From assembly GCF_003334785.1 (NCBI RefSeq), contig NZ_QOWV01000003.1: DNA of 64,000 nt, one strand, 5' to 3'. Origin of the DNA: Escherichia coli. GTDB taxonomy: Bacteria; Pseudomonadota; Gammaproteobacteria; Enterobacterales; Enterobacteriaceae. Below, piece by piece: positions 54,901-60,900 of the stretch (position 1 is the stretch's first letter; each line of letters starts with the position of its first letter). A program made the position numbers.

Positions 54901-57900
54901 GAGGCTGAGCTAGACCCGCTTGATGGCAGTTACGTTCTTAATTATGGCGAAGAGAAGGGTATCGAGGGGGTTGCTAAAGGCTATCTGCAACTCACTGCGC
55001 AACCAGCACATTTACGTAACATTATTAGCGACGGTTATTCAGAAGCTTCGGTGTTCAAAACTGCCGGAAGCGACGCTAAAGGCGGTTGGTTTTTCACCTC
55101 CGGTTGGCCGGTAATTAAACCCGATACGCTTTTGATCAATAAAGTCCATGCAGAAAGCCTAAGGCTTGATTGGCTGGCTAAGACCACGCCTCCAGTCGCT
55201 AGTGTTCATCCTACCGTGCCTCTTGCCGCTCCTGCCCCTACTATCGATAACGAGTATGTTAATCGAAAGTATTACACTAAGAATCTGTCGTGGTTATGCT
55301 CTGAATATCTAAAGCATCGGCGCAAGGGCAAGGTATCGGAGTCGGCTATAAGTGATATCCGTAACTATTTCAGCTTTATGATCGAAGCGATGGGTGACAT
55401 TCAGTTGGAAGATTTTGATCGCGATTTCCTCCGGGCTTATGAGAGCAAACTGCGCACGATCCCAGCAAACCGTAATTTAGTCAAAGCTAAATATGGAGTG
55501 AAAACGCTGGATCAGTTAATCGCCAAAGCGGCAGAATGCGGCGATAAATTGATGACTGAGGAATCCGTTAGGAAGTATATCAACGGCATTTATGGTGCAA
55601 TGAAGTGGGCTGTTGCTGACGGTAAGCTACTGAAATCGCCATGCGAAAACTTTTTTCCATCCGATGATAAAGATGAGCGAGATCAGGATCACACTGACAT
55701 ATTTGAACCGCATGAAATTAAAGCGATTTTTTCGTTACCGTGGTTTGAGGCTGGAACTGTTGAACGCAATGCGCAAGGGCGATTCCATCAATATTGCCCG
55801 TTTAACTATTGGGCACCTTTGCTGGGCTTGATGACGGGGGCGCGAGTTAATGAAATCGCTCAGTTACTGCTGAGTGATGTTCTGGCAGACGACGGCGTCT
55901 ATTATTTGAACCTTGAAAGCGATAATGAAAGCGGAAAGAAACTCAAAAATGCTAATGCTCGCCGCAAGATTCCGCTCCATTCAAAGCTGATTAGTCTCGG
56001 TTTCATCGACTACGTGAACGCCTTAAAAGATGCAGGGTATACCCGTCTCTTCCCGGAGCTTAAACCACATAAAACAAAAGGCTATGGTAGGCCAGTTTCC
56101 GCATGGTTCAATGAATCGTTGCTTGCGGGGCGGTTGAAACTCGAGAGGAACAGAAGCAAATCTTTCCATTCTTTTCGCCACTCAGTTTCGACTTTGCTCA
56201 AGGAGAAGGGCGTTAGCTCAGAATTACGAGCGCAGCTACTTGGGCATGTGCGCGGCGAAACTGAAACGGAAGTGCGATATAGCAAAGACCTCAAACCAAT
56301 TCATATGATTGAAGTCGTGGAGAAAATTGATTTTTCGTTACCTGATATAGCGGAATTCAACATTCCTGACGGGCTGGATGCTGTCAGAGATGCGTTGCGA
56401 AGAAAGCGTGGCAAACAAACAGGTTGAATCAGTTACTATTCAGTTGAGTGATGCTTGAATGCGCTGGGACGCTTCCTGGCGCATTTTTTATTAAGGGTGG
56501 TGGATTTCATAGTGCTGAATTTGGAGACGCTCAAAACACGTTTGGTGAAACTTGATGACCTACGATTGCACCCGCAGCCCTTCTACGCTTTCTGATGGTA
56601 GATTTATCACTGTTTTAATGCTGGCCTCTATGTTGCCAATGATGTCTTCGCGCGGGCCGCTGCGCCAGTCATCGCTTGCGTAAAAAGCGTCGAGAACCGT
56701 AGTCATGCTTTTAGGGCTGACAAAGGCGCGAATCAGGTAATAGCAGTCCGGGTCATGCAGAGAGTTACCAAACGAAACAACATCGATCCCGTGGCGTTGG
56801 TGTAGGGGAACACTGATTTCCTGCATAATGGCGTGAAAAGCGGCACCGCTGCCTTTGCGTAAGGTGTATTGCAGTATCTCGACGGTTCTCAAAGCATTAT
56901 CTCCGCGTCGCCTCTGGACGGCTCCCTTGTTGATAGCAATAAAGTAAACCGGACTGGGCCATGAAGCTACTGCTAATCAGACAGTCATCCGTAAGCAAAA
57001 GCTGCGATATGCGGTTCAAACGCGCTGTAAGGCTCTCTGGCGAGTGTTTTAAAGAAGGTAGTCGAAATCATGGTGCAGAATTCGCGGCGCTCTCATAGAG
57101 TGACTGGCGAAGCCAGTTGAAACAAGCGTAGCGGAGTTCGAGCAATCAATGAGAAATCTGGGCGAGCTTTAAGCTTTACCGCGCTTCTTAACTTTTGAGT
57201 CTGTTTGGCTCTATAAGGATAAGCCTGCCGCCGTGGAAATTTTCGGACGCTATGCCTGAGAGGGGCGCTTCCAAACCTAGGGCATCCACTTTTTCGCTCC
57301 CAACTTATCTGGCTGCATTTACACCGCGAACACGTTGAACGTTAGCAGCTTCTGGTTCGTATTTGGTTGTTACGCAGGAGAGGTAAAAACGGCAGGTTTA
57401 CTTTTGACGGCAACGCCATAAGACACCAAACAGCAGAGAAGTGTAATTGTTAAAAATGTTAAAACATAACTTGTTCTTTAAGATGTAAACCCTTCCTCGG
57501 GGGGGAAGCCGGACATATCAACCATAAGGCCATCTGAGAAGATAGCCTGTAGGTTGCTCGGTTCCCCTTGCCAGATGAAGATCAAGTCTTCCTCGTGGTG
57601 TGACGACCTTTCTTGAAAGATGCATTATGCGCAAAAGAAGCTACTCAAGAATCCGCCGATAGCTACTTTCACCCTCTGCTTGGCTGCATCAAACGCTTGC
57701 GCGCCCTACCTACCACAATCAACGTTACGCAGAGTTCCCATCCTGACGTCTTCCGCTAAACAGCGGTGATCTCCACCTACCCGGACCGGTTTACCGCATG
57801 AGGTAGGTGTCAGGAGAGAAGCTAGCACACCATCATTTTAAAGAAAAGTCATATATATCATATGGCTGCGTTCATATTCTGAACGCAGTTATCGATGTTA

Positions 57901-60900
57901 ACCTAAAGGTATGAGAACACTGTCGTTTTTCATATACAAAGGGTGCTTCGGCTCACCTGTAGCGTTTAAGACGAAGCACATTGTGCTCTCTGGCAATAGC
58001 TGTCGGACGGTCGTTGAGCGTTTGAGGTGTCTTCCTTCATTTCCCCATGCGGCGACAACCAGTCCGGCACCGCTAACAAGACGTATCAAGTGGCTATCGT
58101 TATCTTTGCCAATGGGATCAGACGCTTTCATCATTTCATGTCGCTGGGTGTGAACGAATGCGAACAGGTTGGCCATGTATACGCCACCGTAGCCCCAGCT
58201 TTTGGCAAACGATATGCAGCGGCTCAAGGTGCGATCATCCTTCTCAGCATCGGCGTATGAAGGGTTTAGCCCTATGAAAAGGGCATATGGTTTTGATTCG
58301 TCCCAGACTCGTGATAACGAGTAGCGATATTGACCGCACGGTGAAAAATCGCGTCTTTAATCATTTCGGTTGTCCTTATGAAGTGATGGTTTCAGCCTAA
58401 CATGTCTTTATCCGTTTTAAGCGCCAACAAACGACCGTTTTCTGGCACCTCCCAATCGCACGCTTTCACACTGTTGGAAAAATAGCCTTGGCTTTTCTGG
58501 CAGGCCATCCTAATGTTGGCCTCGTTTTCTGGCAGGGGTCAGATGGGGAGATAACAATGGCAACTTTTGGCTACGGACGTGTTTCGACATCGCAGCAGGA
58601 TACTGAGAACCAACGGCTGGAGCTTGGGCAGGCTGGGTGGCAAATTGATTACTGGTTTGCCGATGTTGTTAGCGGGAAGGTTCCGGCAATGCAACGTAAA
58701 GCATTTTCTGAAATGCTCAATAAAATCCGCGATGGTGAAACGTTGGTGGTAGCGAAGCTTGATCGTCTGGGGCGTGATGCGATTGACGTCTTGCAAACGG
58801 TAAGGGCGCTGGCTGACCGTAATATCAAGGTTCTTGTCCACCAGCTTGGTAACACAGATCTCACTTCTGCCGCTGGGAAGTTGCTATTATCTATGCTCGC
58901 CGCGGTTGCGGAGATGGAGCGTGATCTGCTGATTGAGCGCACTCAGGCGGGACTATCACGAGCAAAAGCCGAAGGTAAGAAATTGGGCAGACCTCCTAAA
59001 ATCGCGTCAGAAGCCCGTAGAGAGATTTTAGAGAAAAAGAATAGCGGTTTGAGTATCAGTGCGTTAGCGCGTCAATATGGCGTTTCAAGAGCGACTGTAG
59101 CAGCTATTACCGATTGAATATGGAGAGTTTATGGCTTACACAGCAACTGTTATCCCTGTAATGATTGCTTCTCCTGGTGATGTCGCTGAAGAGAGACAAG
59201 TCATTCGTGAAATGATCCATGAGTGGAATGATATAAATTCAGCTCGTTCAAAAGTAATGTTGACACCAATTGGATGGGAAACTCATACATCACCCGAATT
59301 AGGAGTTAGGCCTCAGGAGTTGATTAATCAAAGATTATTAGTAGATTGTGATTTATTAATCGGTGTGTTTTGGACTCGTCTAGGCTCACCGACTGGGAAC
59401 GAGGCCAGCGGAACAGTCGAAGAAATCCACCGTCATTTGAATGCGGGAAAACCGGCAATGATTTACTTTTCCTCAAAGCCTGTTGCCCCTGAAAGCCTTG
59501 ATAGAGAACAATATGAGTCTCTTAAATTGTTCAAAACTGAGTGCATGCAAAAGGGATTGATAGAGTCTTTTAATGACTTATCTGATTTCAAAGAAAAAGT
59601 CCGTAGGCAACTTTCGATAATTATTTCTAGTAGCCCTTATTTGTCTTCTCTTATATCTACCATTAACAATTCTCCTGATGCGAATACAAGTCAATCTTTG
59701 CCAGAAAGTAATTTGTCCGCCGATGCACTCAGTTTGCTGAAATTAGCATGTGTCGATGATAGCGGAACAATTTATGTGATAAGGCATTTAGGTGGCACGG
59801 ATATTCAAGCGGGAAATCAATCCTTTGGTGGAAGTTCGGCTAGAGAGGTAGCCCGTTGGGAGGGCGCACTTAACGAACTGTTATCCTTTGATTTTGTGAT
59901 TGAAAGAGGGGCAAAAGGACAAATGTATTATGTTACTCATAAAGGCTGGACATTTCTTGAATCTTTAAATGAATAATTAAATGCGAGGTCATTACATAAG
60001 TTTATTTTTGATGTTAGGGTGAATTCCCTCACATTTTTATTCGAAAGAGGCCGCAATGACTTCTCCTGTTTTTGCGTTGAAAACACAAAAGTATTGAAGC
60101 GGAGCTAGCATCCCCAAGCTGTTAACTACCTTAGCTTGTTGCCCAAATGCCTGAATAATCTTCGCGTTCTCATCGTGCCAGAGATAAGTATTAAATACAG
60201 GCGCTTCGCTTTCTTGCCACACATGGCGAAACTTCGCTTTCTCATCCATTACCTTTTTGCACTCCCTGACCGGGTTATGGTGCGTTTTCGCATAGCATTC
60301 CGGGTTGTCATCTGCACATACGATATCTTTTCGTGCTGTCTGATGCTCAGCACCTACAGCAGAAAAGGCGCATACGCCCAGCACCAATGAGAGAGTGCCC
60401 AGAGCACCCCATACAGTTGCGCGTAGCGTGCTGATGTGCTGCTTTGATACAGCATGGGCAACTACACTATAACTGGCCCAGCTAATCGCGGCTCCCGCTG
60501 CAATCGGTAATAAAAAGTCTGCTCCCGTCATGATTCCCTCACTTTCCAAACCACATCGCGCCTGATAGCGAACGCTGGTGACGCCCAACCGATGATGATC
60601 ATCATACTTGTTGGGTTTTAAATGTCACCATTGGTGTTTGTTTTGAATCAAAAAGGATTGTCATGATACAGCCGATGAATGCTAGTGACTAAGCTCGCTG
60701 AAGTGAGATTGGATTCAAAATATCTCATATGGAGCGTGGCCTTACAGTGGTCAAAATTGCACATTCAGTGCATGAAAAAATCCCTGAGAATACAGTTTGG
60801 CGAGCGGGTAAAAGAACTGCGCATTGCCACCGGATTGAGCCAAGAGGCCTTTGCCGATCGGTGCGGGTTTGCACGTAGTTATATGAGCAGAATTGAACGT

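What the first reader, a model, noticed from the sequence alone, without database searches (positions are those of the whole stretch)
57898..58364. DUF1643-like gene inactivated by a one-base change in an A5 homopolymer
Translation from ATG 58364 gives MIKDAIF and then leaves the frame; inserting one base in the A5 run (58344-58348) restores a continuous ~155-aa protein (...SPCGQYRYSLSRVWDESKPYALFIGLNPS...ANLFAF...AAWGN...). The lesion sits exactly in a homopolymer, so it is either a sequencing/assembly error, ongoing pseudogenisation, or a slip-prone on/off switch.
Basis: seen in the sequence. Interest (0 to 1): 0.35.

Follow-up and report, generated by a model that had tools for sequence, protein, structure and literature searches.

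The report
Fixed frameshift pseudogene of DUF1643
A small gene of unknown function in an E. coli genomic island has lost one A:T base pair from a six-base run; this is a real, stably inherited and already annotated pseudogene shared by about 300 sequenced strains, not a sequencing error or an on/off switch.

Summary
On the minus strand, ATG 58364 opens MIKDAIF, then a T5 run (A5 on +, 58344-58348) breaks the frame and a stop follows at codon 31. Adding one T gives a 155-aa protein with a full-length DUF1643 match (Pfam E 6e-43).

The window is the E. coli leuX (tRNA-Leu) island, 2 SNPs in 12.3 kb from Nissle 1917. RefSeq already annotates these coordinates there as "DUF1643 ... frameshifted".

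Among 5,426 complete E. coli genomes:
- 297 carry the exact A5 allele, including independent assemblies of Nissle 1917 and ATCC 25922.
- 288 carry A6 with an intact 468-bp gene.

The repaired window gene is 468/468 identical to intact WP_000588537.1, so the only lesion is a one-base deletion.

On the window's exact 1.1-kb haplotype, only one genome (FCI55) has A6. That assembly differs from its sibling by five homopolymer indels in 20 kb. The tract is short, absent from distant homologues, and has no frameshift-stimulating context. The family's invariant N-terminal motifs rule out a natural downstream start.

Verdict: an ordinary, young, fixed pseudogene, already known. The function of intact DUF1643 remains unknown; a uracil-DNA-glycosylase-like fold is only weakly suggested.

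The parts
57898..58364 (-). DUF1643 pseudogene (467 nt; the intact allele is 468 nt and 155 aa)
   Evidence: Searches give the sequence and frames. The restored ORF hits Pfam PF07799 with E 6e-43. It is 468/468 nt identical to intact WP_000588537.1 in strains 510016 and FCI55. RefSeq annotates the same span in Nissle 1917 as a 'frameshifted' pseudogene.
58344..58348 (.). A5 run (T5 on the coding strand), the site of the one-base deletion. Intact alleles have A6, encoding Ile6-Phe7-Ser8 as ATT TTT TCA.
   Evidence: The alignment with the intact plasmid allele shows a single gap in this run. All A6 loci compared differ from the window by '-'/A at 58349.
58272..58364 (-). The only product the frameshifted allele can encode from the native start: a 30-aa peptide (7 native and 23 out-of-frame residues), with stop TAG at 58274-58272
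58373..58377 (-). Shine-Dalgarno-like AAGGA, 8 nt upstream of the ATG. It is still intact and identical in the intact plasmid allele.
   Evidence: Read directly from the sequence and conserved in alignment A1.
57898..58227 (-). Longest remaining in-frame ORF (TTG start, 109 aa). It lacks the invariant N-terminal third of the family, so it is not a plausible functional product.
   Evidence: One search lists the ORF. The invariant residues A5, S8, C10, Y13, R14, R19, W21, F30, I31, L33, N34, P35, S36, A38, D44 and T46 all lie upstream of it.
58557..59117 (+). Small serine recombinase (186 aa), the divergently transcribed neighbour. The DUF1643-recombinase pair is kept together on IncHI1B-type plasmids at 85% nucleotide identity.
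   Evidence: Searches show the plasmid pair. One search shows serine-recombinase family matches, all below the curated cut-offs.
54342..54423 (+). tRNA-Leu (leuX), the attachment site of the island that carries the pseudogene
   Evidence: Rfam tRNA hit, 59 bits. RefSeq annotation in Nissle shows tRNA-Leu followed by a site-specific integrase.

Best explanation
This is a genuine, fixed loss-of-function allele. In an ancestor of one leuX-island haplotype, replication slippage deleted one A:T pair from the A6 run that encodes Ile6-Phe7-Ser8 of a 155-aa DUF1643 protein. Translation from the unchanged start and ribosome-binding site now leaves the frame after Phe7 and stops at codon 31. All family-invariant motifs are therefore lost (S8, C10, YR13-14, GLNPS 32-36, HPL 141-143). 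The deletion happened once, or very few times, and recently. It was then inherited vertically and carried with the island into at least two chromosomal backgrounds. It is stable, not switching. Shown here: the lesion, its reality, its distribution, its single-base nature and the absence of any secondary adaptation. Inferred: slippage as the mutational mechanism, and the protein-level consequence.
For: (1) The frame break and its single-base repair are shown, and the repaired protein is a full-length DUF1643.
(2) The repaired gene is 468/468 nt identical to intact annotated genes in strains 510016 and FCI55, so there is no other lesion.
(3) The exact A5 49-mer occurs in 297 of 5,426 complete genomes, always chromosomal and once per genome. 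Independent assemblies of Nissle 1917 and of ATCC 25922 all carry it.
(4) A6 occurs in 288 genomes with intact 468-nt CDSs at the same island position. The 85%-identical plasmid allele is also A6 and intact. A6 is therefore ancestral.
(5) With the repaired 1,102-nt haplotype as query, only FCI55 is 100% identical; every other top hit shown differs at 99.9% and was 100% identical to the unrepaired A5 query.
(6) FCI55 and FCI54 share the same chromosomal background but differ by 5 single-base homopolymer indels and 1 SNP in 20 kb. This is the signature of long-read assembly error.
(7) In an even sampling of all hits, 27 of 60 rows are 100% identical over all 467 nt, which corresponds to about 280 genomes. 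The allele is therefore young.
(8) A5 islands that are at most 0.13% divergent sit next to core flanks that are 0% or 1.1% divergent from the window, so the allele travelled with the island.
(9) One A5 genome (300709) has since acquired an IS3 insertion inside the gene, as expected for a dead gene.
(10) RefSeq/PGAP independently calls it 'frameshifted'.
(11) The family is under purifying selection: 44 synonymous against 20 non-synonymous codon differences between the chromosomal and plasmid alleles. Its N-terminus is invariant.
Against: One genome (FCI55) on the same haplotype has A6. If real, this would show that reversion occurs. No read-level data for the window's own strain could be inspected. 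Low-level restoration of the protein by ribosomal -1 slippage of tRNA-Phe on U UUU cannot be excluded by sequence analysis, so 'null' is inferred rather than measured. Whether the loss is neutral or selected is unknown.
Confidence: 0.9

Rival explanations
1. Sequencing or assembly error: the true genome has A6 and the gene is intact.
For: Homopolymer indels are the typical error of long-read assemblies. FCI54 and FCI55 show such noise around this locus.
Against: The identical A5 49-mer is present in 297 complete genomes from many laboratories, years and platforms. These include at least two independent Nissle 1917 assemblies and at least three ATCC 25922 assemblies. Errors would not be this consistent, and they would not be confined to one island haplotype.
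Confidence: 0.01
2. Phase-variable (contingency) switch: the run slips between A5 (off) and A6 (on) at a useful frequency, toggling DUF1643 expression.
For: The lesion lies in a homopolymer near the 5' end of the gene. Both lengths exist in E. coli. FCI55 (A6) and FCI54 or DJH_137urine (A5) share the same background.
Against: Only 1 genome on this haplotype is A6, against roughly 297 with A5, and that one is a noisy assembly. No other length is evident: A5 plus A6 account for 585 of the 586 full-length loci. From established knowledge, mononucleotide contingency tracts are usually at least 8 units long, whereas runs of 5-6 are everyday sequence (153 and 45 of them in this window). The tract is absent from distant homologues, which use GTG TTC TCT, GTT TTA TCT or GTA TTA TCA. 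The other alleles are uniformly A6, including 238 O157-type genomes.
Confidence: 0.03
3. Recoding: the A5 allele still yields full-length DUF1643 through -1 ribosomal slippage (tRNA-Phe re-pairing from UUU to the overlapping UUU in GAU UUU UCA) or through transcriptional slippage.
For: A -1 slip of P-site tRNA-Phe on U UUU would give exactly the wild-type sequence MIKDAIF-S-PCG (read). The start codon and ribosome-binding site are intact.
Against: There is no X XXY YYZ heptamer. The 105 nt from the start codon show no significant structure (MFE z = -1.8; 13 of 200 shuffles fold as well). The allele differs from the intact gene only by the deletion, so nothing has been selected to promote slippage. 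All homologues are single ORFs. From established knowledge, five U/A is too short for efficient RNA polymerase slippage.
Confidence: 0.04

Closest known systems
RefSeq/PGAP pseudogene CIW80_RS16540 of E. coli Nissle 1917 (NZ_CP022686.1 3324104-3324570, 'DUF1643 domain-containing protein; frameshifted')
   Same: It is the same locus, with the same 467-nt span and the same A5 tract. The surrounding 12.3 kb differs from the window by 2 SNPs.
   Different: Nothing relevant differs. The window comes from a different strain, which has an IS3-family insertion from 63925 onward that Nissle lacks.
Intact allele WP_000588537.1 (E. coli 510016 and FCI55), with WP_000588536.1 (O157:H7) and plasmid allele WP_023344852.1 (pYLMB10a)
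   Same: The position is the same: in the leuX island next to the serine recombinase, or on plasmids next to the same recombinase. Nucleotide identity to the repaired window gene is 100%, 98.9% (5 differences in 468 nt) and 83% (79 differences) respectively.
   Different: They have A6 and a continuous 155-codon ORF.
Homopolymer contingency loci (phase-variable genes of Haemophilus, Neisseria, Campylobacter and Helicobacter)
   Same: A length change in a mononucleotide run near the 5' end of a coding sequence turns the gene off.
   Different: The tract is far shorter (5-6 against typically 8 or more). It is not polymorphic within lineages and is not conserved in the family. It behaves as a one-off mutation.
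Uracil-DNA glycosylase superfamily (MUG/TDG and family 4/5 UDGs; Brig1 and Brig2 defence glycosylases)

Membership tests
DUF1643 (Pfam PF07799) | Full-length match to the family HMM | tested here: met
   The restored 155-aa translation covers model positions 1-134 of 134 with E 6.1e-43. It also matches phrog_3230 with E 8e-53.
DUF1643 (Pfam PF07799) | Family-invariant residues present (A5, S8, C10, Y13, R14, R19, W21, GLNPS, W107-G108, HPL) | tested here: met
   All are present in the restored translation. They are invariant across 32 homologues down to 51% identity.
DUF1643 (Pfam PF07799) | Continuous ORF, i.e. a functional member rather than a relic | tested here: not met
   The frame breaks after codon 7 and a stop follows at codon 31. 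It is a pseudogene member.
Phase-variable homopolymer (contingency) locus | Tract long enough for high-frequency slippage (mononucleotide run of about 8 or more) | tested here: not met
   The run is 5 bases, and 6 in intact alleles. The window holds 198 other A/T runs of 5-6.
Phase-variable homopolymer (contingency) locus | Tract length polymorphic among close relatives | tested here: not met
   Only 1 genome on the identical 1.1-kb haplotype has A6, against 297 with A5. That one differs from its sibling by five homopolymer indels in 20 kb.
Phase-variable homopolymer (contingency) locus | Tract conserved across homologues as a regulatory feature | tested here: not met
   The Citrobacter, Photobacterium and Shewanella genes have no run at this position.
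Programmed -1 ribosomal frameshift | Slippery heptamer X XXY YYZ in the zero frame | tested here: not met
   The zero-frame codons are GCG AUU UUU CAC. Only a single-tRNA U UUU slip is possible.
Programmed -1 ribosomal frameshift | Downstream stimulatory structure or upstream SD-like stimulator | tested here: inconclusive
   The MFE of the first 105 nt is -24.5 kcal/mol, z = -1.8, and 13 of 200 shuffles fold as well. The sequence is identical to that of the intact allele.
Programmed -1 ribosomal frameshift | Two-frame arrangement conserved in relatives | tested here: not met
   Relatives are single ORFs of about 153-165 aa, and matches begin at profile positions 1-5.
Uracil-DNA glycosylase superfamily (intact protein) | Significant sequence or profile similarity to a UDG family | tested here: not met
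Uracil-DNA glycosylase superfamily (intact protein) | UDG alpha/beta fold | tested here: inconclusive
Uracil-DNA glycosylase superfamily (intact protein) | N-glycosidic bond cleavage activity | not testable with these tools
   This needs an enzyme assay. No paper in the library reports a DUF1643 activity.

The most novel reading that the evidence does not exclude
The A5 allele may not be fully dead. Either the single A6 genome on this haplotype (FCI55) is a true revertant, or tRNA-Phe -1 slippage on U UUU yields a trickle of wild-type protein. In either case a widespread E. coli lineage group (Nissle 1917, ATCC 25922 and about 295 others) would keep a throttled, recoverable copy of a mobile-element DUF1643 enzyme, possibly UDG-like and acting on DNA, paired with a serine recombinase.
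Probability: 0.04. Interest if true: 0.35.

Novelty: already known. Interest (0 to 1): 0.08.

Why it matters
The direct significance is small. The result confirms that a RefSeq 'frameshifted' flag in well-known strains (Nissle 1917, ATCC 25922) reflects a real, inherited one-base deletion and not an assembly artefact. It also shows that the lesion marks one leuX-island haplotype that has spread between chromosomal backgrounds, so the A5/A6 state could serve as a simple marker of that haplotype.

The more interesting open question lies beside the finding. DUF1643 is a very large family (about 17,800 clusters at 50% identity). It is carried on mobile elements, phages and SCCmec, it sits next to recombinases, and it has no known function. 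Natural knock-out (A5) and intact (A6) alleles that are otherwise nucleotide-identical provide a ready-made isogenic pair for anyone who wants to test that function.

Tried and rejected
- **PADLOC scan of the restored protein:** no family even at E <= 1, so it is not a catalogued defence protein.
- **NCBIfam:** no model matched.
- **PDB sequence searches:** the single-sequence and profile searches gave only chance-level hits to subtilisin, chitinase and RibB.
- **Foldseek against PDB:** nothing at E <= 1e-3.
- **hhalign against E. coli Mug:** only the GLNPS/GINPG motif aligned, at 2% probability. The UDG idea therefore stays a lead.
- **Rfam on 54-64 kb:** only the tRNA was found.
- **Promoter and terminator scan:** nothing above shuffle expectation, and no promoter call in the 192-bp divergent intergenic region.
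- **RNA fold downstream of the slip site:** not significant.
- **Literature:** 13 papers mention DUF1643, and the two read in detail mention it only as an annotation label in SCC/ccr complexes or IS cargo; phage genomes are among the other eleven titles. 'COG4333' returned nothing. The Brig1 and Brig2 papers do not mention this family.
- **Alternative downstream start:** rejected. The only one is a TTG giving 109 aa that lacks 16 invariant residues.
- **Independent inactivation in E1433 (Y59*):** noted but not relied on, because that assembly has several other 'internal stop' flags.
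Full report
**1. The observation**

On the minus strand the sequence reads AAGGA-(8 nt)-ATG ATT AAA GAC GCG ATT TTT CAC CGT... The ATG is at 58364-58362 and the T5 run is at 58348-58344, which is A5 at 58344-58348 on the + strand.
- Frame 0 gives a 30-aa product, MIKDAIFHRAVNIATRYHESGTNQNHMPFS*, from ORF 58272-58364.
- The adjacent frame is open from just before the run down to 57898. It reads DFSPCGQYRYSLSRVWDESKPYALFIGLNPS...ANLFAF...AAWGN...HPLY.
- That frame has no start codon before a TTG at 58227, which would give only 109 aa.
- Adding one T gives a 468-nt, 155-aa ORF. This ORF matches Pfam DUF1643 end to end with E 6.1e-43.

**2. Where the window comes from and what is already annotated**

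The 1.1 kb around the gene is 100% identical to many complete E. coli chromosomes, including Nissle 1917 and ATCC 25922. Over 12.3 kb the window differs from Nissle by 2 SNPs.

In Nissle the region reads as follows:
- tRNA-Leu, then a site-specific integrase and a NIPSNAP gene;
- about 1 kb with no annotated gene;
- "DUF1643 domain-containing protein, pseudogene, frameshifted", covering the same 467 nt as the finding;
- a recombinase-family protein, a hypothetical protein (annotated as DUF4062 in other strains), a membrane protein, an HTH protein and AbiJ-NTD4.

The tRNA lies at window 54342-54423. The finding is therefore already recorded in RefSeq.

**3. It is real, and it is a deletion from A6**

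An intact relative on plasmid pYLMB10a is 85% identical, again next to the same recombinase. It begins at the same ATG, reads MIKDAIFSPCGKYRY..., and has T6. The alignment shows one gap, in the run.

I designed 49- and 50-nt probes in which every 28-nt megablast seed must span the whole run. The results were:
- The A5 probe hits 297 of 5,426 complete genomes, all at 100% identity, all chromosomal and once each.
- The A6 probe hits 288 genomes. Fifty are identical and 238 carry the O157:H7-type allele with two SNPs.

Together these account for 585 of the 586 genomes holding the full locus. Five of the six A6 loci inspected carry intact, annotated 468-nt CDSs at the same island position; the sixth (E1433) is flagged "internal stop" (section 4). 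The repaired window gene is 468/468 identical to the genes of strains 510016 and FCI55, which encode WP_000588537.1.

The sole lesion is therefore the loss of one A:T pair from an ancestral A6. Because independent assemblies of Nissle and of ATCC 25922 all show A5, sequencing error is excluded.

**4. It is not a switch**

With the repaired 1,102-nt haplotype as query, only one genome (FCI55) is a perfect match. All the others shown are 99.9% identical, and those same genomes were 100% identical to the unrepaired A5 query.

FCI55 shares its chromosomal background with A5 strains FCI54 and DJH_137urine; all three show the same 64 core-flank differences from the window. FCI54 and FCI55 differ in 20 kb by five single-base homopolymer indels and one SNP. 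This is typical long-read assembly noise, so the lone A6 is weak evidence for reversion.

Other arguments against a switch:
- The tract has 5-6 bases, and the window holds 198 other A/T runs of that size.
- The tract is not a family feature. Citrobacter, Photobacterium and Shewanella genes use GTG TTC TCT, GTT TTA TCT and GTA TTA TCA at this position.
- An even sampling of all hits shows 27 of 60 rows identical over all 467 nt, which corresponds to about 280 genomes. The allele is therefore young and has barely diverged.
- One A5 strain (300709) has since taken an IS3 insertion inside the gene.

Decay of this gene is not unique to the A5 allele:
- Strain E1433 shows Y59* on an A6 allele, although that assembly is poor.
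- Truncated chimeric remnants (P0019, P0020) are widespread in Salmonella enterica; cluster P0019 alone is recorded on 153 contigs. Partial, unannotated DNA matches to the gene also occur on roughly 85-140 kb Salmonella and E. coli plasmids.

**5. Spread of the allele**

A5 islands are at most 0.13% divergent from the window across 54.43-59.1 kb. Yet they sit beside core flanks (48.4-54.3 kb) that are either essentially identical to the window (0-0.02% divergent; Nissle, N1286, 300709) or 1.1% divergent (DJH_137urine, FCI54).

The closest reliable A6 islands (O68:H12 97.3 and KFu015) are 0.24-0.26% divergent, on core flanks 2.2% divergent. The simplest history is one deletion on one island haplotype, followed by vertical descent and transfer or recombination of the island.

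**6. No natural downstream start and no recoding signal**

- In 32 homologues down to 51% identity, A5, S8, C10, Y13, R14, R19 and W21 are invariant, and the proteins start 0-9 residues before the position of the window protein's Met1.
- In an exhaustive profile search that returned 17,797 clusters at E <= 0.001, matches begin at profile positions 1-5 in nearly all of the 150 listed.
- A -1 slip of tRNA-Phe on U UUU would recreate the native protein. However, there is no X XXY YYZ heptamer.
- The first 105 nt of the mRNA do not fold significantly better than shuffles (z = -1.8).
- The allele differs from the intact gene by the deletion alone, so nothing has evolved to promote slippage.

**7. 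What the intact gene might do (secondary question)**

The chromosomal and plasmid alleles differ at 44 synonymous and 20 non-synonymous codons, which indicates purifying selection.

The family occurs in several mobile contexts:
- phages (phrog_3230);
- SCCmec ccr complexes (PMC10581047);
- as cargo of an ISL3 element (PMC13231603);
- at the end of a type I restriction-modification cluster next to a large serine recombinase in Photobacterium;
- next to integrase genes in Citrobacter.

Rare fusions carry gp32, HNH_3 or DUF4326 domains. No paper in the library reports a function.

An AlphaFold2 model is confident, with pLDDT 91.8. Its structural matches are weak:
- Foldseek against PDB finds nothing significant.
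- hhalign pairs FIGLNPS with the Mug motif FCGINPG, but at 2% probability.

The order GLNPS ... N66-x-F68 ... HPL resembles UDG motif A, stacking residue and motif B. That comparison is from memory and was not tested here. I regard a DNA-base-directed, UDG-like enzyme as the most likely function (about 0.4-0.5), but it is unproven. The protein is absent from PADLOC.

**8. Verdict**

It is not a sequencing artefact, and there is no support for phase variation or programmed frameshifting. Interest is low. Its practical value is as a haplotype marker and as a natural knock-out/intact allele pair for studying DUF1643.

Noticed in passing
window 56893-57897: About 1 kb between the NIPSNAP gene and the DUF1643 pseudogene has no ORF of 50 aa or more and no annotated feature, yet it is retained in every leuX-island variant inspected. 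There is no Rfam hit. A 15-nt inverted repeat lies at 56944-56958 / 57780-57794. PGAP locus tags skip one number here. It is not part of the DUF1643-recombinase module on plasmids, where homology starts at 57866.
   Followed up: partly
window 54342-64000; loci L003-L013: The leuX island behaves as a variable-cargo, defence-type island. A conserved core (integrase, NIPSNAP, DUF1643, serine recombinase) is followed by different cargo in different strains: AbiJ-NTD4/PDC-S32 here (62274-63098, PADLOC E 6e-104), type II Zorya in O157:H7, a 958-aa reverse transcriptase in E1433, and HerA plus a Ser/Thr kinase in E-93.
   Followed up: partly
window 59131-59976 (+): A 281-aa protein, annotated as hypothetical or DUF4062 in RefSeq, lies directly downstream of the recombinase. 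Its residues 8-167 match the N-terminal 170 positions of the 906-position PADLOC candidate PDC-S60 (E 5.8e-27). It may be a stand-alone version of that domain.
   Followed up: no
window 63925-64000: The window departs from Nissle 1917 at 63925, at the left end of an IS3-family element (TGAACCGCCCCGG..., ORF starting MTKNTRF; IS629/IS1203-like from memory). The element is inserted into the transposase fragment that continues in Nissle, so the source strain is a close relative of Nissle and not Nissle itself.
   Followed up: partly
L008 (FCI55) and L013 (FCI54), whole 20-kb loci: These two RefSeq 'complete' assemblies of the same lineage differ by five single-base homopolymer indels in 20 kb, one of them in the tract under study. 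Homopolymer-length calls in such assemblies should not be read as biology.
   Followed up: yes
L010 (strain 300709) 10007-11786: An IS3-family element, annotated with a programmed frameshift and an AL1L pseudoknot, has inserted into the already frameshifted DUF1643 gene. A second IS3 element splits the AbiJ-NTD4 gene in the same island.
   Followed up: no
L016-L018 (Photobacterium) 4048-8100: A 58%-identical DUF1643 gene overlaps by 8 nt the end of a small ORF that follows HsdR and a YgjP-like hydrolase. It lies 0.6-1 kb from a 674-aa large serine recombinase. A recombinase gene also lies close by in the E. coli chromosomal island, on the E. coli plasmids and, as reported for ccr complexes, in staphylococcal SCC elements.
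   Followed up: partly
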